From positions 1 to 58,249 of IMG/VR virus record IMGVR_UViG_3300043432_000295: a stretch of DNA of 58,249 bases, one strand, 5' to 3'. A program made the position numbers and the translations under genes. Below are positions 844 through 50,002 of the stretch, one piece after another. The stretch is from a virus. Taxonomy: Duplodnaviria > Caudoviricetes. Under the pieces are notes generated by a model. The model did not search any database. It was not told the origin of the DNA and saw only the letters and a program-made list of their open reading frames with translations. How positions within the stretch are numbered: the stretch's first letter is position 1; every line of letters begins with the position of its first letter.

Positions 844-1389
844 TTGGTCGCATCCCGAGGCCGCCAAGCCGCCACGGCCCAGCGCCGAGCCGCGGCCATC
901 CAACTCCGCATCGAAGGAAAATCCTTCGAACAAATCGCCACCGAACTCGGCTACGCCAGCCGAGCAGCAGCCAGCACCGACATCACCCGAGCCACCGAAG
1001 CCGCCATCCTCGAACAACGCGCCGGCATCGAAGTCCTCCGCGAGCAAGAACTGATGCGCCTCGACGCGCTCTGGCAGGAAGCCTGGCGAGTACTGCGCAC
1101 CGAGCACTACATCCTGCACCAAGGCAGCGTGGTCGAACGCGAGGCCGACGACGGGACACTGATCAAAATCCTCGACGACGGGCCGGTGCTGCAATGCATC
1201 GACCGGCTACTTCGCATCCAGGAGCGACGCGCGAAGTACCTGGGCCTGGATGCGCCGACCCGCCACGAGGTGACCATCGATGAGCTCGACGACCAGATCA
1301 GAACCCTCACCCGCGAGCTCGGACTATCTGTCACGGTTGAAGCTGGCGAAGCTCCTCGAACTGAAGAAACTGAAGAGGATCAAGGCTGA
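844..1389 (+). CDS. terS: terminase small subunit (HTH)
   Basis: HTH RRAAAIQLRIEGKSFEQIATELGY; ends RRAKYLGLDAP; directly upstream of TerL; SD AGGAG upstream. Confidence 0.75.
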   Translation: MVASRGRQAATAQRRAAAIQLRIEGKSFEQIATELGYASRAAASTDITRATEAAILEQRAGIEVLREQELMRLDALWQEAWRVLRTEHYILHQGSVVEREADDGTLIKILDDGPVLQCIDRLLRIQERRAKYLGLDAPTRHEVTIDELDDQIRTLTRELGLSVTVEAGEAPRTEETEEDQG

Positions 1390-3697
1390 TCGGGAGGCGT
1401 CGGTCGCCATCCCAGACCGGGTCCCAGATCCCGCCGATCGGCACGCGCTGCGCGACCCAGCCAGCCTGGCCGACCACCTCGACGACCGATACAAGCTCCG
1501 GGCGCACCTGCGCATCGTCGGCGACGAGATGCGCAACCTGCACGACCGCCGCTTCAGCCGACTGTCGATCAACCTGCCGCCGCAGTGCGGCAAGACCAGG
1601 ACCGCGGTCGAGTGGGGCGTGTTCTGGTGGCTGTGCCTGCGCCCTGATGCGCACGTGGTCATCGGCTCCTACAACGAGCGCCTCGCGCTGAAACGCGGCA
1701 AGGCCGTCCGCCGTCTCGTACAAGCGTACGGGCACCGGTTTGGGTTGAAGCTAGAGACCGGGTCGGCCAACATGGTCGACTGGTCGCTGACCACCGGCGG
1801 CGGCGTCCGGTCCGTCGGCGTCGGCGGCGGCATCACCGGCGACCCCGCCGACTTCCTCGTCATCGACGACCCCGTCCGGTCCCGCAAGGACGCCGACTCG
1901 CTCAACGTCCGCGAAACCGTCCGCGACTGGTACTCGGCCGACCTGTTCACCCGCCGATCCCCGGGCGCCCCGGTCCTACTGGTCTGTACCCCGTGGCATG
2001 TTGATGATCTACGGGCGACGCTGATCGCGTCCGGCGGCAAGGTCGAGGACGGCGGCCAGTGGCGGCTCGTGGTCATGCCGGCGCTGTGCACCGACCCCAA
2101 GACTGATCCGCTCGGGCGCGAGTTCGGCGACCCGCTTCCCCATCCGAAGGTCGACGAGTACGACACTGCGGCCGCGTTGACGCACTGGCAGGAGGCGAGG
2201 GCCGGCACCAACGTCCGCGACTGGACGTCCCTGTACCAGTGCGACCCGCGGCCGCAAGAAGGGGCCCTCGTCTCGTGGCAGCTGCTGCGGGAGCGCCGCT
2301 GTCATGAGACCAGCTCGTGTTCGCCGGCGCAGCGCATCGGCGTGGCCATCGACCCGTCCGGCGGCGGCCGGGACACGGCCGGCGTGATCGGCGGCTACCT
2401 CGGCGAGGACGGACGCTGCCACTTCACCCACGACCTGTCCGGCGTGATGCCGTCCGACGCGTGGGGGCGGGCGGCCTGCGAGCTGGCCGCAGACACCGGC
2501 GCGGACTTCTTCGTGGCCGAGAAGAACTACGGCGGCGACATGGTCAAGCTCATGATCCGCACGTCGTGGGATGCGCTGCGCCGCGAACAACCCGACCGGT
2601 TCGGGCCGAACGTGCCGCGCATCATCGAGGTCACCGCCCGCCGGGGCAAGATGTTGCGCGCCGAGCCGATCGCCCAGCAGTGGGTCGAGAACCGGTGCGT
2701 GACCGCAACCTACCTACCCGACCTCGAGAGCGAGTGGTGCGTGGCTGGCGGAACCCTGGTCACGACGGCACGAGGAGACCTGCCCATCGAGCAGGTTCGG
2801 GTGGGCGATCAGGTCTGGACGCGTCTGGGCTGGCGCCCAGTGTTGCGGGCGAGTCTCGTCGGAGTGAAGCCGACCGTCGAGATTCAGGCTTCGGATGGGC
2901 GGTCGCTTCGATGCACCGAGGATCATCGAATCTGGGTCGAGGATCACGGCTGGGTCTATGCCGGAGAAGTTGAACTCCGACGTAAACTCCTAACATGCCT
3001 CGACAGCCTCAGCGTCCGTACGTCACGTTTCAGGGCGATCGGTACTACGAATGCCCTGACGGCTATTACCAGTGCGCCCGGACGGTTGCGCGTCGCACCG
3101 GTCATTACCTCTTGCACCGGGCGGTGTGGGCTTCGGTTCATGGACCGATCCCCGAGAAGACTCACATCCACCACATCAACGGCAGGTCCGACAATTCGAT
3201 CGGGAATCTCGAGGCTCATCCAGCCCGAGAGCATCTGCTCATGCACAAGCGAGGGACTCCGTACACCGGAGCTGTCGCCTGGACTCGTGAGCAAAAGAGC
3301 GCATCGCGTCGCGCCGAGTGGGCGCGACGCGAGCCTCACTCCATTGAATGCGTCGTCTGCGGAGCTACGGCCATGGTCCGTAGCTACCGAGCGATCACGT
3401 GCGGTCGACGCTGCGCGAAGCGTCTCGGCTATTACCGTGCGCTCGGTCGCGAGCACGAGATCCGTCGAGTCGGTCTATGACATCACCGTGGGCGGCGGCG
3501 CGCATGAGTTCTTCGCCAACGGCGTCCTCGTGCACAACTGCACGTTCATGCCGGGTGCGACGGACTCGCCGGGCCGCATCGACGCCTCGGTGTACCTGGC
3601 CCTCGAGCTGCTGCCTATGCCGGCCAGTGGCGAGTCGTCGATGCGCGGCGCGGCGCTTCTGGCCGAGACGGACCTGTTGGGCGGCCTCTGGCGCTGA
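1280..3697 (+). CDS. terL: terminase large subunit, intein-containing
   Basis: Walker A variant INLPPQCGKT, Walker B FLVIDDP, RNase H-like GVAIDPS and EKNYGG; Hint motifs inserted in the nuclease domain. Confidence 0.93.
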   Translation: MSSTTRSEPSPASSDYLSRLKLAKLLELKKLKRIKADREASVAIPDRVPDPADRHALRDPASLADHLDDRYKLRAHLRIVGDEMRNLHDRRFSRLSINLPPQCGKTRTAVEWGVFWWLCLRPDAHVVIGSYNERLALKRGKAVRRLVQAYGHRFGLKLETGSANMVDWSLTTGGGVRSVGVGGGITGDPADFLVIDDPVRSRKDADSLNVRETVRDWYSADLFTRRSPGAPVLLVCTPWHVDDLRATLIASGGKVEDGGQWRLVVMPALCTDPKTDPLGREFGDPLPHPKVDEYDTAAALTHWQEARAGTNVRDWTSLYQCDPRPQEGALVSWQLLRERRCHETSSCSPAQRIGVAIDPSGGGRDTAGVIGGYLGEDGRCHFTHDLSGVMPSDAWGRAACELAADTGADFFVAEKNYGGDMVKLMIRTSWDALRREQPDRFGPNVPRIIEVTARRGKMLRAEPIAQQWVENRCVTATYLPDLESEWCVAGGTLVTTARGDLPIEQVRVGDQVWTRLGWRPVLRASLVGVKPTVEIQASDGRSLRCTEDHRIWVEDHGWVYAGEVELRRKLLTCLDSLSVRTSRFRAIGTTNALTAITSAPGRLRVAPVITSCTGRCGLRFMDRSPRRLTSTTSTAGPTIRSGISRLIQPESICSCTSEGLRTPELSPGLVSKRAHRVAPSGRDASLTPLNASSAELRPWSVATERSRAVDAARSVSAITVRSVASTRSVESVYDITVGGGAHEFFANGVLVHNCTFMPGATDSPGRIDASVYLALELLPMPASGESSMRGAALLAETDLLGGLWR
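2983..2997 (+). promoter_or_regulatory. Putative -10 element for a leaderless HNH transcript inside the intein
   Basis: TAAACT-6 nt-ATG(2995), the same geometry as other leaderless promoters in this genome; no SD near the ATG. Confidence 0.45.
2995..3480 (+). CDS. HNH homing endonuclease in an alternative frame nested in the intein
   Basis: LLHRAVWASVHGPIPEKTHIHHINGRSDNSIGNLE...H (HNH_3-type) plus C-terminal CVVC...CGRRC; frame differs from terL. Confidence 0.85.
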   Translation: MPRQPQRPYVTFQGDRYYECPDGYYQCARTVARRTGHYLLHRAVWASVHGPIPEKTHIHHINGRSDNSIGNLEAHPAREHLLMHKRGTPYTGAVAWTREQKSASRRAEWARREPHSIECVVCGATAMVRSYRAITCGRRCAKRLGYYRALGREHEIRRVGL

Positions 3698-23039: not shown

Positions 23040-23065
23040 CGCACAGGTCACGGGGGTGACACGGC

Positions 23066-25117
23066 GTGGGTCAGCCAATCGACACCGCGACAGTCCTGCT
23101 CGTCTCCGATGCGTCCGGCTTCGCTCGCCAGGTCAAGCTGCAGGTCGATGAAGCGCTGCGCGGCATCGCCTCCCAGGTCGACCGGGCCTTCTCCGCGATC
23201 GAACGCTCCTCCCAAGAGGCCGGAAACGAGATCGGCCAGGACTTCCAGCGCGGCGGCGAACGCGCCGAGCTGGCTTTCGGGGAACTGTCGCGGGCGGCCC
23301 GCCGCGAGTTCGCCGAGATCGATACCGCCGCGGGTGCCTCAGCCGCTGGCATGTCGTCCAAGCTCGGCGGCGCCCTGGCGGTCATCAAGACCGGGCTGAT
23401 GACGGTCGGCCTGGCTGCCGGCGCCGGCCTTGCCGCGATGACCGGGTTCGGGCTCAAGTCCGCGGCCAGCCTCGAGCAGAGCACCGTGGCGTTCACGTCC
23501 CTGCTGCACTCGGGCCAGGACGCGAAGGTCTTCCTCGACCAGCTGCAGCAGTTCGCCGCCGCGACGCCGTTCGAGTTCGCCGAGCTCGTCCCGGCCAGCC
23601 AGCGTCTACTCGTCCTGGCCCAGAGCCTCGGTCAGACCAAAGACGCCGTCGTGCCCATGCTCACGACACTGGGCGACCTCGTCAGCGTCACCGGCGGTAG
23701 CTCGGAGAACATCGACAGCGTCGTGCGTGCGCTGGGCCAGATGGCCTCGAAGGGCAAGATCTCCCAAGAGGAGATGATGCAGCTCTCCGAGGCGCTGCCC
23801 GGCTTCAACGCCAACGCGGCCATCGCCTCGAGCCTGGGCTTGTCCGTCGCAGATACGCTGACGCTGATCACCGCCGGCGGTGTCGACGCGACCACAGGAA
23901 TCAACGCCCTGCTCAAGGGCATGGCCGCCTTCCCTGGCGCGGCCGGGGCGATGGCCGCCCAGTCGCAGACCCTGACCGGCGTCTTCTCGACCTTCAAGGA
24001 CACGGTCGGGATCGCGCTGACCAATGCGTTCCAGCCGGCCATCCCCGCCATCAAGGATGCCCTGGGTCAGCTCACTCCGATCCTGGGTAACGCGATCGGC
24101 CAGCTCGCGCCAAGCCTCGGTGCCGGATTGGCTGCGATTCTGCCGTTGCTGGGCAAGCTGATCGGCGCGATTGTCCCGATCCTGTCGCCCATTCTCAACG
24201 CGCTCGGCCCGGTCCTGGACGCGCTGGGGCCGGCGCTGCAGCCACTCGGCGAGGCCCTGGGCCAGCTCGTCGTGGCGCTGGTGCCGATCCTGCCGATCGT
24301 CGCCCAGTTCATCGCCGTGCTCGCCGAGCTGGCCATCCCCATCATCAAGCTGCTCGCCGCAGTTCTGCTGCCGTTGACGCCGATCCTGAACTACATGGCC
24401 GCCGCGATCGGCGAGGTCGCCAAAGCTCTCGGGATGATCGACTGGACGGCGGTGGGGTCGGCCATCGGGGGCGCGTTCGCCAGCGCTTGGCGGGCCGTGT
24501 CCGATTTTGCCGTCAACGCGGCCAAGGCGATCTTCGAGTTCGGCGCCATGCTCGGCACGAAACTACGCGAGTTCATCGACAACATCGCCACCTTCGTGAC
24601 CAACTCGATCAGCTTCATCACGAGCCTGCCGGGCAAGATCCTCGGCGCCCTGGGCGACTTCGGGTCGCTGCTCATTCAGAAGGGCCGCGACCTTATCTCC
24701 GGTTTGTGGGCTGGCATCTCCGGCATGGGCAGCTGGCTCTGGAACAAGATCACAAGCTTTGTCAGCGACAACATCACCGGACCCATCAAGTCCGTCCTGG
24801 GCATCCACTCGCCCTCGACCGTGATGCGGGACCAGGTCGGGGCGATGATCCCGGCCGGCATCGGCGAGGGCGTCCAGGGCGGCCTGCCAGATCTGAGCAG
24901 CCTCATCCGGGGCATCGTGCCCACCGCGAGCGCGGCGTCCGGCGCAACCACCTTCGCCGGCGGGATCAACGTTACGATCAACTTCGTCGGCGGAACACCC
25001 ACCGCGGCCGAGGCCAAGACGGTGGGGCAGGCCGCCGCCGACGGCATCATGCAGGCCATCGCCCGGCGCAACGTCGCGACGGCCGTCCGGATGGGTGTGA
25101 GCGGGGTGAGCGGCTAG
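23066..25117 (+). CDS. tape measure protein
   Basis: FAAATPFE, ALGQMASKGKI..EEM.QL, SQTL.G.FST.KD, amphipathic repeats, LGIHSPS. Confidence 0.92.
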   Translation: MGQPIDTATVLLVSDASGFARQVKLQVDEALRGIASQVDRAFSAIERSSQEAGNEIGQDFQRGGERAELAFGELSRAARREFAEIDTAAGASAAGMSSKLGGALAVIKTGLMTVGLAAGAGLAAMTGFGLKSAASLEQSTVAFTSLLHSGQDAKVFLDQLQQFAAATPFEFAELVPASQRLLVLAQSLGQTKDAVVPMLTTLGDLVSVTGGSSENIDSVVRALGQMASKGKISQEEMMQLSEALPGFNANAAIASSLGLSVADTLTLITAGGVDATTGINALLKGMAAFPGAAGAMAAQSQTLTGVFSTFKDTVGIALTNAFQPAIPAIKDALGQLTPILGNAIGQLAPSLGAGLAAILPLLGKLIGAIVPILSPILNALGPVLDALGPALQPLGEALGQLVVALVPILPIVAQFIAVLAELAIPIIKLLAAVLLPLTPILNYMAAAIGEVAKALGMIDWTAVGSAIGGAFASAWRAVSDFAVNAAKAIFEFGAMLGTKLREFIDNIATFVTNSISFITSLPGKILGALGDFGSLLIQKGRDLISGLWAGISGMGSWLWNKITSFVSDNITGPIKSVLGIHSPSTVMRDQVGAMIPAGIGEGVQGGLPDLSSLIRGIVPTASAASGATTFAGGINVTINFVGGTPTAAEAKTVGQAAADGIMQAIARRNVATAVRMGVSGVSG

Positions 25118-39158: not shown

Positions 39159-40705
39159 CCCAGCCCATCACCCCGCAGCGGATCTTCGACAGCCGCGTCA
39201 GTAAGGGCGGCACCGGCCCGTTCGCGGCCGGCGACACCCGCACCATCCAGGTCCTCGGCAGGGGCGCCGTGCCCCTGTCGGGGGTGGCCGGTATCGTCGG
39301 CAACCTGGCCGTCATCCCCGGCACGGCCGGCGGGTACCTGACGATCTGGCCGGCCGGGCGCAAGATGCCCACCGCGTCGAACATCAACTTCGGGGTCGGC
39401 GGCCCGGCCATCTCGAACACGTTCACCGTCGAACTCGGCCCGACCGGCGCGATCTCCGTCTACGACGGCTACGGCACCGGCGCCGAGGTGTTCATCGACG
39501 TGCAGGCCTGGATCCCGGCCCCCGAACTCGCCCCGGTCGGCCCGTCCGTTTTGCCCACATCGACGAGCGCGCCGTCAGGCACCGACAGCGTCAAGGCCGC
39601 CCAGGTCCTCACCACCGCCCTGCGCTACGGCATGGACACGTGGTGGCCCGGGCCGGCCCAGACGCTGCTCGCCGCCGACCTCGGCTACGACTACCTGGGC
39701 AAGCCCACCAACCACGACGCCGTACGCCGCCTGGGCATGGCCGCGCTGGGCATGTCCACCGCGCTCGCGACAGGCCTGTCCACCGACCCGGTCATGCTGG
39801 CCCGCACGGTCGCGCTCGTCACCCGCGTGGCCGGCGCGCACGTCACCAACGCCGTGGGCGGCTGGGGTGAGGGCTGGCAGACGTCCATGTGGTCGTCGCT
39901 GTGCGGCCGGGCGGCGTGGTTGCTGTGGCCGTCGATGCCGGAGGAGACTCGGGCTGCGGTGGCGCGGATGGTGGCCCACGAGGCCGACTACGCCGCCCGC
40001 TACCAGATCCACTACTTGCGCGACGCGGCCGGCACGGTCCTGTCGCCGGGCGACTCGGGCGCCGAGGAGGTGGCCTGGCAGGGCACCGCCATGCAGATCG
40101 CCGCCGTCATGCTGCCGACCCATCCGAACGCCGGCATCTGGCAGACGGAGATGCAGCGGTTCGCGCTCGCCGCGTGGGCCCGGCCGGCCGACGTGGCCGG
40201 CTCGCCGCTGACCATCACCGGCTCCAACGTCGAGCCCAACGGGCAGGTCATCAACCATTCGCGGATCGCCCCGGACTACAGCACGTGCATCCAGTTCAAC
40301 CTCGAGGCGTGGCCGCTGTTCGCGCTCGCCGGCAAGGCGACCCCTCAGGCCATGCGCCAGTTCCTGGGGCCGGTCTACGCGGCGCTCAACGCGCTGTACG
40401 TGCCCGGCACGGCCACGATCACCTACCCGCAGGGCTGCGACTGGGGCACCGGGCAGCAGGCGCCCTACGCCCTCGCCGACGCCCTCGCCGTCTGCTGCGG
40501 GTTCGACACGACCGGGACTGCGGCCGGCTACCTCGATCTGCACCTGGACGAGTGGCTGGCCCAGCAGGCCCGGCACGCCGATGGGCACACGTACGAGCCC
40601 GGGGAGTATGTGTACGAGGGTTGCGAGGAACACGCCATGATGCTGGCCGCGGCGGTGTGGGTGGCGCTGTGGATGCGGGACCAGGGGCTCGGGTCGTTCG
40701 CCTGA
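39155..40705 (+). CDS. protein with N-terminal PxRIxDxR beta-module and helical (lyase/toroid-like) domain
   Basis: PQRIFDSR...GYLTIWP..PTASNINF...DVQAW; WQ.SMW, GDS.AEE, NH.RI.PDY, YPQG.DWG. Confidence 0.6.
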   Translation: MTQPITPQRIFDSRVSKGGTGPFAAGDTRTIQVLGRGAVPLSGVAGIVGNLAVIPGTAGGYLTIWPAGRKMPTASNINFGVGGPAISNTFTVELGPTGAISVYDGYGTGAEVFIDVQAWIPAPELAPVGPSVLPTSTSAPSGTDSVKAAQVLTTALRYGMDTWWPGPAQTLLAADLGYDYLGKPTNHDAVRRLGMAALGMSTALATGLSTDPVMLARTVALVTRVAGAHVTNAVGGWGEGWQTSMWSSLCGRAAWLLWPSMPEETRAAVARMVAHEADYAARYQIHYLRDAAGTVLSPGDSGAEEVAWQGTAMQIAAVMLPTHPNAGIWQTEMQRFALAAWARPADVAGSPLTITGSNVEPNGQVINHSRIAPDYSTCIQFNLEAWPLFALAGKATPQAMRQFLGPVYAALNALYVPGTATITYPQGCDWGTGQQAPYALADALAVCCGFDTTGTAAGYLDLHLDEWLAQQARHADGHTYEPGEYVYEGCEEHAMMLAAAVWVALWMRDQGLGSFA

Positions 40706-40862
40706 GGTATCGTGACGGTGCCCCACTTTCCTCGGGTAGCCAGTCAAGCGGGCGTTACCGCACAGGTGGATCGGCTCGGGTGCAGGGAGACCGAGGCTCT
40801 GCTGCACGACACAGTGCCGGACGTACGGGCCGGCGGAGGGGTGGGCCACGCACCTCCCGTAG

Positions 40863-40918
40863 AAAAACAAAAAAAGGCCCCCTCTGCTGACGCCGGCTGG
40901 ACGTCAGCAGAGGGGGCC
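40863..40918 (-). terminator. Rho-independent terminator of the minus-strand block
   Basis: 17-bp perfect stem GGCCCCCTCTGCTGACG/CGTCAGCAGAGGGGGCC followed on minus by TTTTTTTGTTTTT. Confidence 0.9.
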
Positions 40919-40971
40919 CTCTTCGTCACCGTACTAGCGGCCAGCCGGACCGTTAGTCCGACCGATTACCT

Positions 40972-41541
40972 TCAACGTCCCGCAGGTGCCGGAGAAACCG
41001 GCGCCGCTCCTGCGGCCTCGAGCATCTTGTTCGCCTCGGCAACAGTGGCCGGCAGCTTCGGCGCGCGCGGCTTGCGAGCAGGAGTCGTCTTCCGGGCGGC
41101 CGTGCCACGGGTCCGCGCCGCCTTCTTGCCAGCCGCCACCCGCACCGGGTCCTTCGCCCGGACACGAGCCTTGACCGCCGCCGTCACAAACTCCGACAGG
41201 AGGTAGGCGATGACAGTCCACAGGTTCGCGCACTTCGCTCCGAGCGTCCCGCCGGCGATGAAGTTCGCCGTCCCGGACACCGCGACCGCCAGCACCAGGA
41301 CCACAAGCGAGGTCCAGAAGCCGCGGCGGGCCACATCAGGAATGTGCAGAGCGATGTTGCAGGTGATGGCAAGCAGGTCGACGGTGAGCGGCACCGCAAG
41401 CTGGGCCATCTGGTCAACGCCCCACGTCGCCAGCAGTTCGCGCTGGTGGCCGTAGGACACCGCCGCCGCGACGATCATGATGGCCGTCGTCGAGAAGCGG
41501 GTTCGTTGGAACGCAGTCAGGCTGCGCAGGTACTGGAACAT
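40972..41541 (-). CDS. DUF2637-like membrane protein with basic C-terminal tail
   Basis: AVSY.H..EL...PLTVDLL, S.TAN; several TM segments; SD GGAGG. Confidence 0.75.
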   Translation of the reverse strand: MFQYLRSLTAFQRTRFSTTAIMIVAAAVSYGHQRELLATWGVDQMAQLAVPLTVDLLAITCNIALHIPDVARRGFWTSLVVLVLAVAVSGTANFIAGGTLGAKCANLWTVIAYLLSEFVTAAVKARVRAKDPVRVAAGKKAARTRGTAARKTTPARKPRAPKLPATVAEANKMLEAAGAAPVSPAPAGR

Positions 41542-41922
41542 GGTGGTCTCCCTCCACCAGGCCACCCCGGTTGGGTGGCGGGAGTGCGAGCGCCGGGTGT
41601 GAACCCGTCTGGGGAGATGCCTGCTCGCTGCGCGCGGACGGAGCCGGGCTCGACGTCGCTGCGCTGGTCTTAGGTGCCGGGGATGCCGCCCCGGCGCGCG
41701 ACCTACGTTGGCCCTACGCCCGCCGTGTCACGCTCCGGCAGCCCCACGTCCAGCCCTACTCACATGGCGGCTGGATCTCCCCTGGCCAGTTGTCGTACGG
41801 CCCTGGTAACGCCCGTCGTTACGACTCGGGTGCCGCGCTGATCAAGGCTCAGCGGCTAGGCCTTGGCCTGACGGCCACGGCGTGGGCGTAAAGGCGAATG
41901 GTCTTACGCCCCACCGGAGGTG
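41542..41922 (-). ncRNA. ~380-nt structured intergenic RNA / leader
   Basis: No credible ORF; nested helices, long-range GGGGAGAT/ATCTCCCC, T-loop-like GGGTTCACACCC, ends in the SD-hairpin module. Confidence 0.55.
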
Positions 41923-42150
41923 TCAGGACGTGCGGGCGTGCTTCTCGGCGATCTTCCAGAACTTCTCCTCGTCCACGATCTGCTCGAAGCCGGCCGTGTT
42001 GAGTAGCTCGTTCCCGTTGGCGTCGTGGTCGACCCGGTACTCGAACGCCGCGGCGAAGATCGCATCGACGTCGTAGTCCGGCTCGGTGATGTCCTCGGGG
42101 AACTGCTGGGCGATCGCGTCGTCCTTCGTGGTGTACCTCTTCGTGCTCAT
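41923..42150 (-). CDS. small acidic actinophage protein
   Basis: YTTKDDAI...DYDVDAI...FWKIAEKH; SD GGGAG. Confidence 0.75.
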   Translation of the reverse strand: MSTKRYTTKDDAIAQQFPEDITEPDYDVDAIFAAAFEYRVDHDANGNELLNTAGFEQIVDEEKFWKIAEKHARTS

Positions 42151-42340
42151 GGCGACTCCCATCGCTATGGCAGCGGTGTTGCTGCGTGCGCGGCGGCCGA
42201 TCTGTGAGCGCGCCGCCGCGCTGGGGTTCGAGCACCACGCCCGATGACGCTGGTCGTGGCCTGTCGCGCTTTCACCCCGAAGTGATCCAGAGGTGGGCGC
42301 CGGGGCCTCGAACCCCGGTGGCTGCCAGCCACCCGTCCGG

Positions 42341-42580
42341 TTAGTTGATGCAGCACCGGTAGTCACCGCATGGCGCCAGCGGGCACGGACCACTGTCGTG
42401 GAAGTGTCCGCACAGGCAGCAGATGTCCGCTCCGTGCTCGTCGCCGCAACAGCACCGCATGGTCCCGAGGACCACGCCGTGCTGCTCGCCGCAACGCGGG
42501 CAGGTCACCACGTCGATGAGCTCGCCCTCGATGACCTCGATCACATCAGGCAGGTTCTTGCGAACCACCAAGTCGCTCAT
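42341..42580 (-). CDS. Cys/His-rich small protein
   Basis: CPRC, CCC, CCLC, CP..PC...CC; SD GGAGG. Confidence 0.7.
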   Translation of the reverse strand: MSDLVVRKNLPDVIEVIEGELIDVVTCPRCGEQHGVVLGTMRCCCGDEHGADICCLCGHFHDSGPCPLAPCGDYRCCIN

Positions 42581-42676
42581 GTCGGTCTCCCTCCGACCTG
42601 GCCGAGTTCCGCTCGGCGCGGTTCTGGCCTGACGGCCACGGCTCCGACCGGTACGAGACCGGCCGGACCGGAGTCC

Positions 42677-42850
42677 TCAGGATTCCACGACCTCCGCACG
42701 TTCCTTCGTCAGGAAGGTCTGGCCGTCCACCGGGTCGATCCTGCCGAGGAACTCGAAGATGTCCTTCGCGGCCTCCTCGACCGTCACGCCGGTGGTCCTG
42801 GCCCAGCCCTCGACGTCCGCGTCGATCTCGAACATGACCTGGATCTTCAT
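42677..42850 (-). CDS. 57-aa acidic hypothetical protein
   Basis: MKIQVMFEIDADVEGWARTTG...VVES; SD GGAGG; below the ORF-track cutoff. Confidence 0.7.
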   Translation of the reverse strand: MKIQVMFEIDADVEGWARTTGVTVEEAAKDIFEFLGRIDPVDGQTFLTKERAEVVES

Positions 42851-42928
42851 GTCGGTCTCCCTCCGACGTGCCGTCCCTTGTGGACGGATGAGCGAGCGGC
42901 AGGGGTTCGACCCCCTGCCGCCCTTCGA

Positions 42929-43219
42929 TCACCGGACCATCCGTACCTCGTACGTGGTCTCGCCGAAGCACGACTGGAGCTTGCACTCCCGGTCGCATCC
43001 CAGCCAGACATCCCAGCCCTGAACCGGGCTCTCCGATACCCACAGCAGCTTCCCCCACGCGTCGGTGTCACCCATGCTGTTGTGGCAGTGGGCGACCTCG
43101 ACCTCGTTCAGGTACAGCCACAGCTGGTCAGTCGGGATCTGGCCTTCCCAGGTACCGTTCTGTGGCACCCGGCGCGGCGAGCTGAACAGCGGCGGATAGG
43201 TCTTGGCGGTGTCGTTCAT
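42929..43219 (-). CDS. hypothetical protein
   Basis: SD GGAGG; first gene after the long leader. Confidence 0.7.
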   Translation of the reverse strand: MNDTAKTYPPLFSSPRRVPQNGTWEGQIPTDQLWLYLNEVEVAHCHNSMGDTDAWGKLLWVSESPVQGWDVWLGCDRECKLQSCFGETTYEVRMVR

Positions 43220-43717
43220 GTGGGTCTCCCTCCCACAGGACCGTCCGGTGTGGACGGTCGGAGTGGACCCGAAGGGGATCGAACCCTTCTGCGGTGGGCG
43301 TTACGCCTCGGTGGTCGTCCAGGCTCCCCATCCGGCATCCCGGCAGAGCCGGGCCTTGCAGTCCAGGGCCCCGAGGGTGCGGTCGCGGGAGTGCGGTGTC
43401 GCGCTCGCCCCGGGGCGGGATGTTGCGGCCGGCCGCGCGCTGACGCGCTGCGTGCCCGGCTCCGTGCTCGGCCTGTCCGCGGCGTTCGTCCGTACCGGCT
43501 AGAGGCGCTCGCGGCTCGGGGGCTATCCCCGCCTGTCCTACGCACTGCCCGGTCTCGTTCTCGTCGTCGTTTTGGCTTTCGTACCCACGCGCTGGTGGGG
43601 TGGTTCCCGACAGGGCTCCTGCTGCCGCTCGCGCGGTCCCGGTTTCTCCCTGGTGGTCTGGGCTTATGTTCGGCCGTGGGGCCGGTCTGGATTTCAAGGT
43701 CTTCGTCTTGCCCTTCT
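43220..43717 (-). ncRNA. ~500-nt structured 5' leader / ncRNA
   Basis: Lies between a promoter and the first SD; overlapping ORFs look non-coding; many inverted repeats; T-loop-like GAAGGGTTCGATCCCCTTC. Confidence 0.55.
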
Positions 43718-43723
43718 ACCTCC

Positions 43724-43751
43724 AGTGTAGCATCCCGGGATGCCTGGTCAA
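43724..43751 (-). promoter_or_regulatory. Promoter of the minus-strand block with palindromic spacer
   Basis: TTGACC-16-TACACT; spacer contains the perfect palindrome GCATCCCGGGATGC. Confidence 0.7.
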
Positions 43752-43798
43752 GTCAGAGCGAGGGGATCCAACTGTCGGATACCTGACAGACCGGGATA

Positions 43799-44002
43799 CT
43801 AGGTGCGGGTACGGCGCCAACCCTTACCCGGACGATTATCCAACCACCGCCGCGCCGTCGACTCCCACCACCACGGCCGGGCATGCCCCGCCTCCAGATC
43901 ATGACCATCCGGAGACGGCAGATTCGCCCGGCCCAGCGACCGGATCGCAATGCCGGCCAACTCGGCGATGTCAGCCCGATACAGCTTCCGGCACGACGTC
44001 AT
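43799..44002 (-). CDS. Xis/AlpA-like HTH DNA-binding protein
   Basis: LYRADIAELAGI...LPSPDG...PWWWESTARRWLDNRPGKG; TATGAT-7-ATG leaderless. Confidence 0.7.
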   Translation of the reverse strand: MTSCRKLYRADIAELAGIAIRSLGRANLPSPDGHDLEAGHARPWWWESTARRWLDNRPGKGWRRTRT

Positions 44003-44082
44003 ACCCACCATCATACATCCCAGACGGTCTCTCCCGGGGACGCGGCGTTAGGTCGCAGGCACGTCCCCGGGAGCGGTTCCTG

Positions 44083-44325
44083 TCAGTACAGCGACTCGGC
44101 CCGGATCCGCCCACTGGCCAGACCGGCCTCCAGCGCGTCCAGCCCGCTGACCGCGACCGCACGCAACACCCGCGCCTGCGAAATGCGGTACCGGCTCGCC
44201 AACGCCTTGATCCGATTCTTCGTCTCGGGTGTATCGAGCCAGACGAGTTGAGCGGTGTAGCGGGCGGCTGCTTCGGTGCCACGGTATCCGCCGCGTGCGA
44301 CGGGCTCAACGCTGCTAGATGCCAT
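44083..44325 (-). CDS. ribbon-helix-helix-like regulator
   Basis: RYTAQLVWLD-TPETKNRIKALASRY-RISQARVLRAVAVSGL (strand-helix-helix pattern). Confidence 0.6.
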   Translation of the reverse strand: MASSSVEPVARGGYRGTEAAARYTAQLVWLDTPETKNRIKALASRYRISQARVLRAVAVSGLDALEAGLASGRIRAESLY

Positions 44326-44333
44326 ACCCCAGC

Positions 44334-44370
44334 ACACTACTTGACGTGTCACTAGGTGGTCAACTAGCGT
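44334..44370. promoter_or_regulatory. Overlapping divergent promoters with operator copy 5
   Basis: Plus TTGACG-18-TAGCGT-6-ATG(44377); minus TTGACC-18-TAGTGT-8-ATG(44325); operator 44341-44356. Confidence 0.75.
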
Positions 44371-44376
44371 CGGGTC

Positions 44377-45318
44377 ATGCAGAGTAAGACGCCCTGGCTG
44401 AACCGTGCGCCCAGTACCGCCGTGCCCTACCAGCAACTCCCCGCCGTCGCGGCCACCGCCACGTCACGGGACCACTTCAGCCACTCCTACCTGCAACGCT
44501 ACGAATCATGCGCCTTGTCGGCCATGCTCGGCGACGCGTCACAGGCCAGCCTGATCGGACCCGGCCGCCCAAGCTGGTCACAGGTCGCCAGCCGCGCCTT
44601 CCACACCGCAGTCACGACGATCGAACGCGCCGCCCTCGCCGGCGTCACCATCGCCGACGACCCGGCCACACTGTGGACCGCACTGTTCGACACAGAGATC
44701 CAAGCACAGTTGACGGCGGTGGCCGGCACACCGCACGCCGACTCCAGCACCTGGCACGCGGCCAACCGCGGCAAGGAAGGCTTCGACTGGTGGCGCCTAC
44801 AAGGCCCCAACATGATCAAACTGTATGTGGCCTACCACAACCCGACCTGGCGCAGCCACAACCAAACCCTGCTGCTGCACGACAAGACCCCCGTCATCGA
44901 CGTCGACTACGACATGACAATCCGCAGCCTCGACGAGGAACGCGGCCTGCACATCCAAGGCATTGTCCCCCGGGCGGTCCTGAACGTGCGGACCTATTCG
45001 GTGACGGTCCTGGCCTGTCTGGTCGAGTCGTCGGTGGAGTCCACCTTTGAGCTCGGCGAGTACGGTCACGCGCTGCTGATGGCGATGGGGATTCCGGCCG
45101 AGCCCGCCGACCGGCCGATCCTGGGCCAGTACTGGCTGGCCCGCAAAGGCGTCTACAGCAGGCCGGTCCGCGTGTTGCAGCAGCATCCGCTGGCCGAGTT
45201 GCAGTACCGCTACGACCAGGCACTACGCGGTACCCGGGGGAGGGTGTTCGCGGCGAACGTGTCCAGTTTCTGCGCGGGTTGTGATGTGAGGGACTACTGT
45301 CCGACTCAGACCCATTGA
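44377..45318 (+). CDS. Cas4/RecB-like PD-(D/E)XK-fold protein, catalytic motifs degenerate
   Basis: HFSHSYL..YESC, AFH, C-terminal FCAGCDVRDYC; G-x-I-D and D-x-K not recognisable. Confidence 0.7.
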   Translation: MQSKTPWLNRAPSTAVPYQQLPAVAATATSRDHFSHSYLQRYESCALSAMLGDASQASLIGPGRPSWSQVASRAFHTAVTTIERAALAGVTIADDPATLWTALFDTEIQAQLTAVAGTPHADSSTWHAANRGKEGFDWWRLQGPNMIKLYVAYHNPTWRSHNQTLLLHDKTPVIDVDYDMTIRSLDEERGLHIQGIVPRAVLNVRTYSVTVLACLVESSVESTFELGEYGHALLMAMGIPAEPADRPILGQYWLARKGVYSRPVRVLQQHPLAELQYRYDQALRGTRGRVFAANVSSFCAGCDVRDYCPTQTH

Positions 45319-48307: not shown

Positions 48308-48507
48308 TGCCGCGCACGATCGGCACGATGCTCGACCTGTCGGTGCTGTGCTTCTACGACGCCTGCCCCGAGTGCTACGACCCGGACTGCCTGTGCCACT
48401 GCCACGACCTGGACGACCTTGAGCCGCTGGAGTTGGACGAGGCGGCCGAACGTGCGGCCGAGATCGAATACGACACGCGGGCGAGGAGACGGGAGGCGAC
48501 CCGGTGA
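48304..48507 (+). CDS. small Cys-rich acidic protein
   Basis: C...CPEC...CLCHCH. Confidence 0.55.
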   Translation: MMPRTIGTMLDLSVLCFYDACPECYDPDCLCHCHDLDDLEPLELDEAAERAAEIEYDTRARRREATR

Positions 48508-49157
48508 CTGTCGAACTCATCCGTACGCCAGAGGACCGCTGCGTCCACTGTGACCGCCCGATCTACCTCCAAGGCATGTGCGCCCTGCTGGCCGACCCGG
48601 GGTTCGTCGACGAGGTGTGGGCCGAGGTCGCGACGCTGGCGCACGAGGGCATCGACATCACCCGCCACGCCGGGCGGTGGGGCGGCTGGCCGCTGCCCAA
48701 CGTCGAGGTCGGGGTGTCGGCCGAGGATCAGTACTGGGCCGGGCTGCGCCTGCCCGCCCTGGAGGCGACGCCGGCCGCGGTCCGGTTCGTCTCGTGCGAG
48801 CCGCTGCTGGGCCCGATCGACCTGTCCCGCTGGGTCGGGGCCGAGTTCGGCCTGGACGGCCGCTGGCAACCCGCCCAGACCGGGATGGTCGGGTCGGCCG
48901 GGCGGGAGCGGGCGTTGGACTGGGTGATCGTCGGCGGCGAGTCCGGCCACCACGCACGGCCGGTCGAGGAGTGGTGGATCGGGGACCTGGTCGACCAGGC
49001 CACCGCCGGCGGGGTGCCGGTGTTCGTCAAGCAGCTCGGCACCGCCTGGGCCCGCACCCACGGCCAGCCCGGGAAGGGCACCGACCCGGCCGGCTGGCCT
49101 GAGCACCTGCGCATCCGCCAGCTGCCCACCCCCGCCCGGGCGGGGGTGCGGGCGTGA
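48504..49157 (+). CDS. DUF5131 (Gp37/Gp68-like) C-terminal portion
   Basis: WPLPNV..GVSAEDQ, RFVSCEPLLGP, LDWVIVGGESG, VFVKQLG; N-terminal Cys motif missing. Confidence 0.75.
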   Translation: MTVELIRTPEDRCVHCDRPIYLQGMCALLADPGFVDEVWAEVATLAHEGIDITRHAGRWGGWPLPNVEVGVSAEDQYWAGLRLPALEATPAAVRFVSCEPLLGPIDLSRWVGAEFGLDGRWQPAQTGMVGSAGRERALDWVIVGGESGHHARPVEEWWIGDLVDQATAGGVPVFVKQLGTAWARTHGQPGKGTDPAGWPEHLRIRQLPTPARAGVRA

Positions 49158-50002
49158 CGGCCGAGGGTACGGCCGGGCGAGGGTTCTTCCTCGGGGCCCA
49201 TCAGCCGGGCTGGTTACGTGATGGCCGGGCTGCGTTGTTCGTCTCCGACCGCCAGCTGCGCGGCTACCGCCGGCTGCCGGTCGCGGGCCGGGCGTGGGCG
49301 CTGGACTCGGGGGCGTTCACCATCCACCTGCGGCGGGAGTCGTTCGACCCGCCCGCCGTGTACGCGGCCCGGGTCCGCCGCTACCAGGAGGAGATCGGCC
49401 AACTGCGGTGGGCCGCGCCGCAGGACTGGATGTGTGAACCGGCCATGCTCGCCCTGACCGGGCTGAGCGTGGCCGAGCACCAGCGCCGCACCGTGGCCAA
49501 CTACGTGGCGCTGCGCGACGTCGCGGCCGACCTGCCGATCATCCCGGTCGTGCAGGGCTGGACCATCGAGGACTACCTGCGCTGCGTCGACCTCTACGCC
49601 GCCCCGATCACCCGCGGCGGCGCCGGGGTTGACCTGACCACCATGGACCTGGTCGGTATCGGCACCGTGTGCCGCCGCCAAGCCACCGCCGAGGCCGGCC
49701 ACATCATCACCGCCCTGCACGCGGCCGGCGTCCGGCGCCTGCACGGGTTCGGCGTCAAAGTGCTCGGGCTGCGCCGCTACGGCCACCTGCTCACCTCGGC
49801 CGACTCGATGGCCTGGTCCCTGGCCGCCCGCCGCAGCCCCTCCCTGCCCGGCTGCGTCCACGCCAACTGCGCCAACTGCCGCCGCTACGCCTACCCGTGG
49901 TTCGACACCACCGCCGCCGCGTTCGCCGCTGCCCACGCCCAACCCCGCCAGGCCTACCTGTTCGGCCACCCCACCAGCACCCCCATTGGGAGGACCGCGT
50001 GA
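49154..50002 (+). CDS. TGT/DpdA-like (queuine tRNA-ribosyltransferase fold) protein
   Basis: ALDSGAFT, APQDWMCEP, PVVQGW, GTVCRRQ, LHGFGVK, SADSMAWS, H.NCANC. Confidence 0.8.
   Translation: MTAEGTAGRGFFLGAHQPGWLRDGRAALFVSDRQLRGYRRLPVAGRAWALDSGAFTIHLRRESFDPPAVYAARVRRYQEEIGQLRWAAPQDWMCEPAMLALTGLSVAEHQRRTVANYVALRDVAADLPIIPVVQGWTIEDYLRCVDLYAAPITRGGAGVDLTTMDLVGIGTVCRRQATAEAGHIITALHAAGVRRLHGFGVKVLGLRRYGHLLTSADSMAWSLAARRSPSLPGCVHANCANCRRYAYPWFDTTAAAFAAAHAQPRQAYLFGHPTSTPIGRTA

What the first reader, a model, noticed from the sequence alone, without database searches (positions are those of the whole stretch)
41542..43289. Five consecutive genes each start with the same covarying RNA module: a hairpin followed by a hairpin holding the SD
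Seen (mRNA sense, minus strand): GCCACCC-aaccg-GGGTGGC ct GGTGG-AGGGAGA-CCACC ATG (41541); GCCGAG-cggaa-CTCGGC cag GTCGG-AGGGAGA-CCGAC ATG (42580); CCGTCC-acaag-GGACGG cac GTCGG-AGGGAGA-CCGAC ATG (42850); ACCGTCC-acacc-GGACGGT cct GTGGG-AGGGAGA-CCCAC ATG (43219); variant GCAGC-aacacc-GCTGC cata GCGAT-GGGA-GTCGC c ATG (42150). Stem sequences differ while pairing, loop length and spacing are kept, which is what selection on structure produces. Inference: a shared translational control or processing signal for a set of small early genes. Options are a target for a phage or host RNA-binding protein (the AGGGA loop matches the CsrA-type ANGGA pattern), protection of processed monocistronic mRNAs, or a portable expression cassette that aids gene shuffling. 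I do not recognise it as a named motif.
Basis: partly seen in the sequence, partly recalled or inferred. Interest (0 to 1): 0.88.

Follow-up and report, generated by a model that had tools for sequence, protein, structure and literature searches.

The report
Two-hairpin start module of phage genes
Each small gene of one early operon in this uncultured high-GC phage, and in its relatives, starts with the same pair of RNA hairpins that holds the ribosome-binding site in an exposed loop; this is a new structured start signal that resembles the still unexplained start-associated sequences of mycobacteriophages.

Summary
Four genes of a leftward operon (43219 to 40972, minus strand) start with an identical layout. 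It consists of a hairpin with a variable stem (H1), 2-3 nt, a 5-bp stem with the invariant loop AGGGAGA (H2), then ATG. The fifth gene carries a second subtype with a GGGA loop.

A covariance model built from 5 copies finds 37 copies in the window plus 17 IMG/VR loci, and 12 new ones in metagenome contigs. About 97% of pair cells are paired, against 74-76% in shuffles. Ten of 12 pairs show changes on both sides.

All 37 copies open complete ORFs from 25 protein families. There is no Rfam family, no copy in 50,697 phage records, and one hit in 185,579 species genomes.

The module is the 3' half of a regular intercistronic unit: stop codon, strong hairpin, linker, H1, H2, AUG. My best reading is a portable, insulated ribosome-binding cassette for a hypervariable array of small early genes.

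Two other readings are not excluded. One is an operator for a trans-acting factor or a cis anti-SD RNA. The other is a role in mRNA processing.

The closest known thing is the Cluster K SAS/ESAS, but this is not a member. CsrA is not supported. No RNA data exist.

The parts
43724..43751 (-). sigma-70-like promoter of the leftward operon (TTGACC, 16 nt, TACACT, with TG before the second hexamer)
   Evidence: the only promoter-like site in 40600-44500, against 0.3 expected in shuffles. This is a consensus match only.
43260..43717 (-). long untranslated leader; its 3' part holds a T-loop-like hairpin (GGGUUCGAUCCCC) and a block shared with L003 and L031
   Evidence: No confident ORF was found by the GC3 screen. 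The structure is only an MFE prediction.
43217..43259 (-). module 1 (type A): H1 43239-43259, spacer CU, H2 43220-43236, ATG 43217-43219
   Evidence: R1 49.6 bits. The MFE shows both hairpins.
42929..43219 (-). gene A, 96 aa, no family
   Evidence: A 90%-identical homologue in L011 sits behind a type-B module.
42894..42923 (-). H0: 12-bp GC-rich hairpin 5 nt after the stop of gene A, followed by the linker GCUCAU
42848..42889 (-). module 2 (type A): H1 42871-42887, spacer CAC, H2 42851-42867, ATG 42848-42850
   Evidence: R1 61.2 bits.
42677..42850 (-). gene B, 57 aa, no family
42625..42673 (-). two hairpins after the stop of gene B (about 42642-42673 and 42625-42638); the second has the GUGGCCGUCAGGCCA motif, which is repeated near 41880
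   Evidence: Conserved at 92% in L010.
42578..42618 (-). module 3 (type A): H1 42601-42617, spacer CAG, H2 42581-42597, ATG 42578-42580
   Evidence: R1 34.3 bits.
42341..42580 (-). gene C, 79 aa, Cys-rich, no family
42148..42185 (-). module 4 (type B): H1 42170-42185, spacer CAUA, H2 42152-42165 (5-bp stem with one U-G pair, GGGA loop), C, ATG 42148-42150
   Evidence: Not found by R1. The same subtype occurs 4 times in L011.
41923..42150 (-). gene D, 75 aa, no family
   Evidence: The L010 homologue (75% over 71 aa) sits behind a canonical type-A module.
41586..41628 (-). class II element: helix P1 (41623-41628 with 41586-41591), internal loop with invariant UCUCCCC (41611-41617), hairpin P2 (41594-41607)
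   Evidence: Found before 9 modules, with 6 different P1 arm sequences. UCUCCC is the complement of the loop's GGGAGA.
41539..41580 (-). module 5 (type A): H1 41561-41579, spacer CU, H2 41542-41558, ATG 41539-41541
   Evidence: R1 64.6 bits.
40972..41541 (-). gene E, 189 aa, DUF2637 membrane protein; the conserved last gene of the operon
   Evidence: Pfam PF10935, 26.5 bits against a cut-off of 22.8. Its family has 11 of the 37 module-preceded genes.
40875..40919 (-). intrinsic terminator: 20-bp stem followed by a T-run

Best explanation
The two hairpins act in the mRNA. They form the 3' half of a modular intercistronic unit: stop codon, strong hairpin H0 or a more complex structure, short linker, H1, H2, AUG. 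The unit belongs to an early, host-polymerase-driven leftward operon of an uncultured high-GC (actinophage-like) virus.

**H2** is a structured ribosome-binding site. Its invariant purine loop AGGGAGA is the Shine-Dalgarno element, and the loop keeps it single-stranded. The 3' arm of the 5-bp stem serves as the SD-to-AUG spacer.

**H1**, together with H0, locks up the neighbouring C-rich sequence. That sequence cannot then pair with the G-rich SD, so the start site is insulated from whatever gene lies upstream.

Any small ORF placed behind the cassette is therefore translated in a set, context-independent way. Stems may drift as long as they pair, which produces the covariation. The identical core of about 20 nt also gives homology for recombination, so genes are exchanged exactly at the start codon.

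**Shown:** structure conservation, position at real starts, restriction to one operon, predicted SD exposure, and mosaic junctions.

**Inferred:** the effect on translation, the insulation, and any role in recombination.
For: - **Position and orientation.** All 37 model hits lie on the coding strand and open a complete ORF of 45-201 aa. Thirty-six use ATG and one uses GTG. The stem ends 0-1 nt before the start codon.
- **Structure under selection.**
- **Many gene families.** The modules precede 25 protein families. The element therefore belongs to the start site, not to one gene.
- **Distinct from other genes.** The plausible SDs I saw before + strand genes in this record are not held in such hairpins.
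- **Predicted folding.** H1 and H2 both appear in the MFE of 23 of 28 48-nt windows. H2 appears in 9 of 12 full intercistronic spacers.
- **Predicted SD exposure.** The energy to open the AGGGAG hexamer averages 1.05 kcal/mol in native context. It averages 4.85 kcal/mol when the flanks are shuffled (30 of the 37 units, 30 shuffles each).
- **Stem strength.** The H2 stem alone is only -5.4 to -6.0 kcal/mol, which should be weak enough to open on 30S binding. This last step is an inference.
- **Regular spacing.** Intercistronic gaps are 78-133 nt.
- **Mosaic junctions.** L011 similarity spans 42848-43220, L010 spans 42576-42685, and L023 spans 43217-43268.
Against: - There are no expression, probing or reporter data, and the host is unknown (no RNA holder is listed).
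- Opening the whole stretch from the SD through the AUG costs the same as in shuffles (7.20 against 7.28 kcal/mol). Only the SD is favoured, not the whole site.
- The loop and its closing pair are invariant beyond what SD pairing seems to need. This hints at an extra reader.
- In the type-B subtype the loop is a GNRA-type GGGA tetraloop and part of the SD lies in the stem. That looks more like sequestration than display.
- Anti-SD-like words lie upstream more often than expected. UCUCCC occurs within 100 nt in 10 of 37 modules against 2.1% of windows. CUCCC or UCUCC occurs in 16 of 37 against 13.4%.
- In 5 of 28 units the MFE pairs such a word with the SD instead of forming H2.
- The wobble test gives no strand signal: 5 G-U cells against 6 A-C cells. 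Sense-strand RNA is therefore inferred from position, not from pair types.
Confidence: 0.45

Rival explanations
1. Common operator of a regulon. The invariant loop on its stem is the address for a trans-acting reader that shuts off or times translation of the whole gene array. The reader could be a translational repressor or an SD-cutting nuclease, in the manner of T4 RegA or RegB or an RNA-phage coat protein. It could also be an anti-SD RNA such as the UCUCCCC-bearing class II element of the same operon, acting by loop-loop pairing.
For: - The 7-nt loop and its closing G-C pair are invariant in 36 distinct copies while the rest of the stem varies.
- The module is confined to one operon.
- The class II element has a covarying P1 helix (6 arm versions in 9 copies) and an invariant UCUCCCC in an internal loop, 76-81 nt before the ATG.
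- L011 carries UCUCCCA in the 21-nt loop of an 11-bp hairpin before a type-B site that reads UGGGAGG, and a CCUCC word before another.
- UCUCCC is enriched upstream.
- The unconstrained duplex of the class II loop with H2 is -12.2 kcal/mol. A recalled 16S tail motif gives -11.9 kcal/mol.
- There is precedent in T4. RegB cuts GGAG in early translation initiation regions when GGA is unpaired. RegA binds about 30 start regions (PMC3014915, passages read).
Against: - No homologue of RegB, RegA or CsrA is in this record. The RegA and RegB searches had no positive control.
- No RNA-binding family turned up among 37 ORFs scanned against Pfam.
- The class II copies are homologous, so the enrichment is not independent evidence.
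- Only 10 of 37 modules have UCUCCC nearby.
- The loop is invariant, so SD/anti-SD covariation cannot be counted. The one L011 case is the only hint.
Confidence: 0.25
2. mRNA punctuation. The polycistronic transcript is cut in the short linker between H0 and H1. H0 then protects the 3' end of the upstream message, and H1 protects the 5' end of the downstream one. This would give monocistronic mRNAs of set stability. H2 would be merely the ribosome site.
For: - The order is very regular in the 12 folded spacers: stop, then 5-10 nt, an 11-14-bp GC-rich hairpin, a 3-8-nt linker (often CACUC followed by A or C), H1, H2.
- A perfect hairpin of 9 bp or more lies within 60 nt upstream of 12 of 37 modules, against 6.5% of 4,800 background windows.
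- H0 loops recur (UGUCGUG, GUCGAA) on different stems.
- Other units have T-loop-like hairpins followed by about 7 nt and C-UCC or C-UCA.
- One unit gives a weak match to the tRNA-like mascRNA family. That match is not significant (E 8.4, 16.7 bits against a threshold of 42.5).
Against: - No 5' or 3' ends could be mapped.
- ARAGORN finds no tRNA.
- H0 is absent from about two thirds of units under the strict criterion.
- The acceptor-like closing helix of the leader element is not in a conserved register in the 3 alignable sequences.
- This reading does not explain the invariant loop or the abutment of H2 on the AUG.
Confidence: 0.15
3. A DNA-level element. The conserved 11-bp core would be an asymmetric protein-binding site, like the stoperators of Cluster A mycobacteriophages or as proposed for ESAS. 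Alternatively, the hairpins would form in single-stranded or supercoiled DNA as recombination sites or promoters.
For: - Pair types show no sense-strand bias (5 G-U against 6 A-C). The covariation alone would therefore fit either strand, or DNA.
- Mosaic junctions lie at the module.
- Two small genes lie just upstream (43799-44014 and 44088-44325, minus strand). By eye they look like DNA-binding proteins, but they match no family.
- Pope et al. favoured DNA binding for ESAS (PMC3203893, passages).
Against: - A site for a sequence-specific duplex binder should conserve sequence. It should not covary in 10 of 12 pairs.
- The element has a fixed position 0-1 nt before the start codon in 37 of 37 copies and a single orientation.
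- No core copy lies at the promoters.
- No tyrosine or serine recombinase is in the record, which is 82% complete.
- No sigma-70-like hexamers lie inside the units.
Confidence: 0.07

Closest known systems
[quoted passage not shown] 2011, PMC3203893; Yasnaya_Polyana paper, PMC12699233; passages read)
   Same: - Both are a repeated asymmetric motif that holds the SD.
- Both have G/C-symmetric ends around 7 nt: GGG-ATAGGAG-CCC there, GG-AGGGAGA-CC here.
- Both lie a few nt before start codons: 3-7 nt there; here the core ends 3-4 nt before the start.
- Both prefer ATG: 80 of 93 there, 36 of 37 here.
- Both occur in one orientation, only in non-structural genes, and with large intergenic gaps.
- Both precede genes of many families.
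- Both often have an inverted repeat just upstream.
- The function of SAS/ESAS is also unknown.
   Different: - The sequences are unrelated. The SAS consensus with up to 3 mismatches occurs 13 times in the window against 22.9 expected, and never in the operon.
- In phage Anaya the SAS has only the 3-bp GGG/CCC symmetry. The ESAS, where present, is a long sequence-conserved repeat containing TTGACA. Pope et al. state that departures in its arms do not support RNA pairing.
- Here the H2 stem is 5 bp and covaries. H1 is 6-9 bp, variable in sequence, and covaries.
- The phage lineage differs: there are no near relatives among 50,697 phage records.
T4 RegB and RegA targets in early translation initiation regions (review PMC3014915, passages read)
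   Same: A shared feature of the start regions of many early phage mRNAs, centred on an unpaired GGA(G) of the SD. It serves coordinated post-transcriptional shut-off.
   Different: - Strong RegB sites follow GGAGRAYARAA, and RNA structure protects against the enzyme.
- RegA sites are A+U-rich and unstructured.
- No RegB or RegA homologue was found here (no positive control).
- This genome is 68% GC.
Coat-protein operator hairpins of RNA phages (recalled, not from a call)
   Same: A small hairpin at a start site whose 3' arm reaches the start codon, and which is read by a phage protein to repress translation.
   Different: In those operators the start codon lies inside the stem and the loop is not the SD. 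Each genome has a single copy. No coat-like protein was looked for here.
CsrA/RsmA binding sites
   Same: A GGA motif in the loop of a short hairpin that overlaps the SD.
   Different: - No CsrA is present in the record, in 4 relatives or in an Actinomycetota MAG.
- Each start site has one GGA loop, not two or more.
- H1 loops (consensus A-N-C-M-G) carry no GGA.
Intercistronic stabiliser hairpins and REP-type palindromes in bacterial operons; intrinsic terminators (recalled)
   Same: H0 is a strong GC-rich hairpin right after a stop codon, placed where 3'-end protection or partial termination would act.
   Different: Most H0 copies have no T-run, whereas the true operon terminator at 40875-40919 has one. 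H0 is part of a composite unit with H1 and H2.

Membership tests
Cluster K SAS | 13-nt consensus GGGATAGGAGCCC with at most 2 departures | tested here: not met
   no match in 40972-43800, and the genome-wide count is below chance. The core here is GGAGGGAGACC.
Cluster K SAS | lies a few nt upstream of start codons of non-structural genes, in one orientation, with a preference for ATG | tested here: met
   37 of 37 at ORF starts, 36 ATG; only in the leftward non-structural operon.
Cluster K ESAS | pair of imperfect 17-bp inverted repeats of conserved sequence, whose departures do not keep pairing | tested here: not met
   H1 arms are 6-9 bp, differ in sequence, and keep pairing: 94.5% of cells paired, and 7 of 7 pairs show changes on both sides. 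Anaya ESAS shown for comparison.
CsrA/RsmA site | a CsrA-family protein in the host or phage | tested here: not met
   0 of 6 records or genomes, while controls rang in E. coli, B. subtilis and T. maritima. The true host is unknown, so this falls short of proof.
CsrA/RsmA site | GGA in a hairpin loop, usually two or more sites per target | tested here: inconclusive
   One AGGGA loop per start. No second GGA hairpin is seen in H1 or H0 loops.
T4 RegB target | GGAG followed by an A-rich tract (GGAGRAYARAA), together with a RegB nuclease | tested here: not met
   The loop is followed by the C-rich stem arm. No PF10715 match was found, but that search had no positive control.
Any Rfam 15 family | score at or above the family's gathering threshold | tested here: not met
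   0 matches in the window; only sub-threshold noise in 40900-44400.
SD-sequestering RNA thermometers (ROSE, fourU; recalled definition) | SD paired inside the stem | tested here: not met
   In type A the SD hexamer lies in the loop and is predicted open, at a cost of 1.05 kcal/mol. In type B it is partly in the stem.
tRNA or tRNA-like punctuation element | cloverleaf or acceptor/T-arm fold recognised by tRNA finders or models | tested here: not met
   ARAGORN finds none. Rfam tRNA-like models give only a mascRNA match at E 8.4. T-loop-like hairpins do exist.
Intrinsic terminator (for H1 or H0) | GC-rich hairpin followed by a T-run | tested here: not met
   One search reports only the site at 40875-40919 on the minus strand. 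H1 and H0 are not followed by T-runs.

The most novel reading that the evidence does not exclude
The operon is an RNA-programmed gene-cassette array. Every cassette boundary is a three-hairpin unit that is processed into monocistronic messages. The invariant SD loop is a common address for an anti-SD RNA encoded in the same transcript. That RNA is the covarying class II structure that displays UCUCCCC, or the UCUCCCA loop in L011. By loop-loop pairing it would time or shut off translation of the whole array without any protein regulator. The identical address would also let new small genes plug in by recombination at the start codon.
Probability: 0.12. Interest if true: 0.85.

Novelty: new variant of a known kind. 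Interest (0 to 1): 0.64.

Why it matters
- **Bearing on an old puzzle.** Start-associated sequences have been known in Cluster K mycobacteriophages since 2011, and the 2025 paper I read still lists their function as needing experimental verification (PMC12699233, passages). This element has the same layout but carries clear base-pair covariation. It therefore argues that at least this version works as folded RNA, and it gives precise stem-breaking and compensatory mutations to test.
- **A new intercistronic architecture.** The unit runs stop, H0, linker, H1, H2, AUG, and recurs before 25 unrelated small-gene families. This is an unusually regular architecture for a phage. It marks a hypervariable early-gene array of the kind in which host-takeover and anti-defence genes are often found, though I have no evidence here for the function of these genes.
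- **Possible practical use.** If the insulation idea holds, the 42-nt cassette would be a ready-made, context-independent ribosome-binding part for high-GC Actinobacteria.

Tried and rejected
**Alignments not in register.** MAFFT alignments of the units (A1, A2, A3) were not in structural register, because MAFFT aligned the CACUCC word instead of the stems. I therefore seeded the model from 5 ungapped copies (A4) and used the model's own alignments. These lean towards the model's structure. One search is the alignment-free control.

**Wobble-pair test for the transcribed strand.** This was inconclusive: 5 G-U against 6 A-C.

**No RNA data.** No RNA holder is listed for the operon. Read laying was not used because only DNA contig runs were offered.

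**Named relatives.**
- None by megablast or blastn of the operon.
- None by tblastn of the DUF2637 protein.
- None by blastn of a 42-nt module at E<=10 (only partial matches inside coding regions, E of 0.7 or more).

**Host genomes.** The commonest 20-mer occurs once in the GTDB species genomes, before a secreted M14-type peptidase gene of an Actinomycetota MAG. It has a short upstream hairpin (29.2 bits). One hit is about the chance expectation, so I draw nothing from it.

**Weak metagenome hits.** Of the 15 metagenome model hits, the three weakest (L110, L045, L058; 30-33 bits) lack a convincing H1. They may be chance pattern matches that happen to pair.

**tRNA-like reading.**
- The T-loop hairpins could in principle be tRNA-like. 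ARAGORN finds no tRNA.
- There is no significant Rfam match.
- The closing helix is not in a conserved register.

**attP-type tRNA fragment.** I considered this for the 45-nt element. No integrase is in the record, which is 82% complete.

**Also rejected.**
- CRISPR-like array or integron attC sites: there are no long identical direct repeats beyond about 20 nt and no recombinase.
- A promoter in each unit: no hexamer pairs were found.
- Known families for the five proteins and the two small upstream proteins: none in Pfam, PHROGs or NCBIfam apart from DUF2637.

**Literature.** Searches for a described equivalent found only the SAS papers and general works. Supplementary figures and tables of PMC3203893 and PMC12699233 could not be seen. 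They hold the full SAS/ESAS site lists and may bear on how far SAS flanks pair.

**Units left out.** It used 30 of the 37 units. The seven left out were L019 (a module identical to L007), L023:1721, L023:857, L010:2428, L016:8085, L038:8357 and L038:8088. These are near-duplicates or have non-standard spacing.


Full report
**What the record is.**
- The window is the whole held genome: one 58,249-bp contig, about 68% GC, with no tRNA.
- It is a virus record rated 82% complete. The only listed runs that hold it are freshwater metagenome DNA runs.
- Genes run rightward from about 1 to 40705. They include terminase, a glycosyltransferase, a GH25 endolysin and a holin-like protein.
- Then comes a leftward block of five small genes (43219 to 40972).
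- Next is about 1.1 kb with few genes.
- Rightward genes then run from 44377. They include a PD-(D/E)XK exonuclease, HNH, DUF5131, DpdA, YqaJ and ERF.
- The best named terminase relative is Saccharomonospora phage PIS 136 at 49% identity, followed by Gordonia phages at 41%.
- No phage record is close at the DNA level.

**The observation.**
- The five quoted sequences are there.
- The exact form is a 5-bp stem, the loop AGGGAGA and ATG abutting the stem. It occurs four times, only at the starts of four of these genes.
- The leftward block is one transcription unit by consensus scans. A TTGACC-16-TACACT site lies at 43751-43724, and a 20-bp-stem terminator with a T-run lies at 40919-40875.
- Only the last gene has a family, DUF2637.

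**Relatives.**
- I scanned IMG/VR for the H2 pattern with its two variable stem positions left free. This gave 38 loci.
- In the 22 loci of 64% GC or more, 27 of 30 matches have both free positions complementary. In the 16 other loci, 1 of 16 does, which is the chance rate.
- The high-GC matches all carry a second hairpin just upstream, with quite different stems.
- These loci share tail, glycosyltransferase, endolysin, DUF2637 and other genes with the window at 30-94% protein identity. They are therefore a family of related uncultured phages.

**Statistics.**
- Without any alignment, a perfect stem of 6 bp or more ends 0-6 nt before H2 in 24 of 28 distinct units. Two more have bulged stems. 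The rate at 17,600 random positions of the same loci is 12.9%.
- Covariance model R1 was built from five ungapped copies. It finds 37 copies at 29.6 bits or more in the window and 17 loci. The best chance pattern match scores 22.8 bits.
- On that alignment, 96.9% of pair cells are standard pairs against 73.8% when shuffled.
- Ten of 12 pairs change on both sides, and 0 of 500 shuffles reach the covariation score. Sliding the partner by 1-3 columns drops pairing to 15-69%.
- The alignment is fitted to the model, which favours it. The alignment-free count and the slide control argue that the signal is real.
It added 15 hits in 10 loci, 12 of them new sequences, with the same figures: 97.0% against 75.8%.
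- The three weakest of these may be chance.
- New H2 stems appear, such as GUCCG/CGGAC, GACGG/CCGUC and GGUCG/CGACC. All are paired and carry the same loop.

**The fifth copy.**
- The site at 42150 has a shorter loop (GGGA) and is missed by R1.
- Locus L011 has four sites of this kind. Their H2 stems are GCUACU/GGUAGC (three times) and GUGUU/GACAC. Each is followed by one nucleotide and ATG, and each is preceded by its own hairpin.
- Each opens an ORF of 49-198 aa with GC3 of 0.69-0.88.
- It is therefore a second subtype, not a decayed copy.
- In L010 the homologue of gene D sits behind a canonical type-A module. In L011 the homologue of gene A sits behind a type-B module. Modules and genes are therefore exchanged independently.

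**What the modules precede.**
- All 37 open complete ORFs of 45-201 aa. Thirty-six start with ATG and one with GTG.
- The ORFs fall into 25 families by blastp at E<1e-4.
- Eleven belong to the DUF2637-like membrane protein family. In the operons I could see, this gene is the last one. It follows a long spacer of 298-799 nt, except in L011, where its start overlaps the preceding stop.
- The other 26 are nearly all singletons.
- One contig (L023 plus L038) has 10 modules in a row.
- Consecutive modules are separated from the preceding stop by 78-133 nt.

**The wider unit.**
- I folded 12 spacers from stop codon to ATG. The order is regular: 5-10 nt, an 11-14-bp GC-rich hairpin (H0), a 3-8-nt linker, H1, 1-3 nt, H2, AUG.
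- H0 has recurring loops (UGUCGUG, GUCGAA). The linker often reads CACUC followed by A or C.
- A perfect hairpin of 9 bp or more lies within 60 nt upstream of 12 of 37 modules, against 6.5% of background windows.
- Other modules are preceded by more complex structures.
- Nine modules are preceded by what I call the class II element. It has a helix P1 with six different arm sequences, a small hairpin P2 with a UUCRNU-type loop, and an internal loop with invariant UCUCCCC. UCUCCC is the exact complement of the GGGAGA of the H2 loop, and it lies 76-81 nt before the ATG.
- In the window this element is at 41586-41628.
- L011 shows UCUCCCA in the loop of an 11-bp hairpin before a type-B site reading UGGGAGG.
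- UCUCCC lies within 100 nt upstream of 10 of 37 modules against 2.1% of windows. These copies are related to each other.

**How it most likely works.**
- The position, the orientation, the ATG preference and the purine loop point to the mRNA and to translation initiation.
- The loop can pair with the pyrimidine tail of 16S rRNA. The canonical CCUCC-type anti-SD is recalled, and the host is unknown. The 3' stem arm gives a spacer of about 6 nt.
- In a thermodynamic model, opening the AGGGAG hexamer costs 1.05 kcal/mol in native context and 4.85 kcal/mol when the flanks are shuffled. Opening the whole SD-to-AUG stretch costs the same either way, 7.20 against 7.28 (30 of 37 units).
- The two hairpins thus keep a G-rich SD free in C-rich RNA without making the site more open overall.
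- Taken with the 25 gene families and the similarity junctions at the start codon, I read the module as a portable, insulated ribosome-binding cassette for a fast-changing array of small early genes. My confidence is 0.45.
- The invariance of the loop, the tetraloop subtype and the upstream anti-SD words keep a regulon-operator reading alive (0.25).
- The H0-linker-H1 order keeps a processing reading alive (0.15).
- These three readings are not exclusive.
- A DNA-level role is unlikely but is not excluded by pair types.

**Comparison with what is known.**
- Rfam 15 has nothing.
- The closest described thing is the SAS/ESAS of Cluster K mycobacteriophages, and the layout and genomic behaviour are strikingly alike.
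- The sequence differs, however.
- In phage Anaya the SAS has only a 3-bp symmetry. The ESAS there is a long, sequence-conserved repeat, which its authors judged not to pair as RNA.
- This is therefore not a member of that family, but it may work like it.
- T4 RegB and RegA give precedents for a common reader of early start regions. No homologue is present (no positive control).
- CsrA is absent from all six records searched.

**Novelty and limits.**
- I found no description of this element in five literature searches or in Rfam.
- I rate it a new variant of a known kind, namely structured start-associated elements of phage early genes.
- Everything about function is inferred. There is no host, no RNA data and no experiment.

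Noticed in passing
window 42291-42335 (minus strand); L040 1501-1543: A 45-nt intergenic element is 93% identical to an unannotated stretch just after the stop of gp61 in 12 phage records, mostly Send513- and Papyrus-like mycobacteriophages. It can form a 5-bp closing helix, a small hairpin and a T-arm-like hairpin (CCGGGG-UUCRAGG-CCCCGG). One helix pair is U-G here and U-A in Send513. A weak mascRNA match (E 8.4) is the only Rfam hint, and ARAGORN finds no tRNA.
   Followed up: partly
window 41586-41628 (minus strand); L004, L012, L019, L021, L025 (two copies), L027, L038: The class II structured element has a covarying helix P1, a small hairpin P2, and an internal loop with invariant UCUCCCC that is complementary to the SD loop. 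It precedes 7 of the 11 DUF2637-family genes and 2 other genes.
   Followed up: partly
window 43220-43717 (minus strand): A leader of about 500 nt lies between the promoter-like site and the first gene, with no confident ORF. Its last 110 nt or so share a block (GCCUGRACGANCACCGAGGCGUAA) and a perfect T-loop hairpin with L003 and L031. The MFE closes this part into a multibranch, tRNA-like shape.
   Followed up: partly
window 44088-44376: Two overlapping, divergent promoter-like sites lie only 6-8 nt before the ATGs at 44325 (minus strand, 79 aa) and 44377 (plus strand, exonuclease-like). I read them by eye. The spacing suggests leaderless or near-leaderless mRNAs. The 79-aa protein and the 71-aa protein at 43799-44014 look like small DNA-binding proteins but match no family.
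   Followed up: no
window 48504-50002: A DUF5131 gene is followed by a DpdA gene (PF23859, 280 bits). This suggests 7-deazaguanine modification of the phage DNA.
   Followed up: no
window 42625-42641 and about 41870-41886 (minus strand): The motif GCCGUGGCCGUCAGGCCA, a small hairpin, occurs twice in the operon's spacers and again in L010, L025 and related forms. Each time it follows a longer hairpin that comes after CUCCGGU.
   Followed up: no
window 1280-3697: The terminase-like ORF is 805 aa, but phage terminases align only to residues 54-488. The C-terminal 300 aa or so are unexplained, or the ORF call is too long.
   Followed up: no
L039 1121-1157: A single module-like site (29.2 bits) lies before a 1033-aa secreted M14-type peptidase gene in an Actinomycetota MAG. 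It is the only hit of the commonest 20-mer in the GTDB species genomes, which is about the chance expectation.
   Followed up: partly
window 23040-23068: The start of the 683-aa gene at 23066 is preceded by GGUCAC-GGGGG-UGAC, another G-rich SD in a hairpin loop. It is unrelated in sequence to the module.
   Followed up: no
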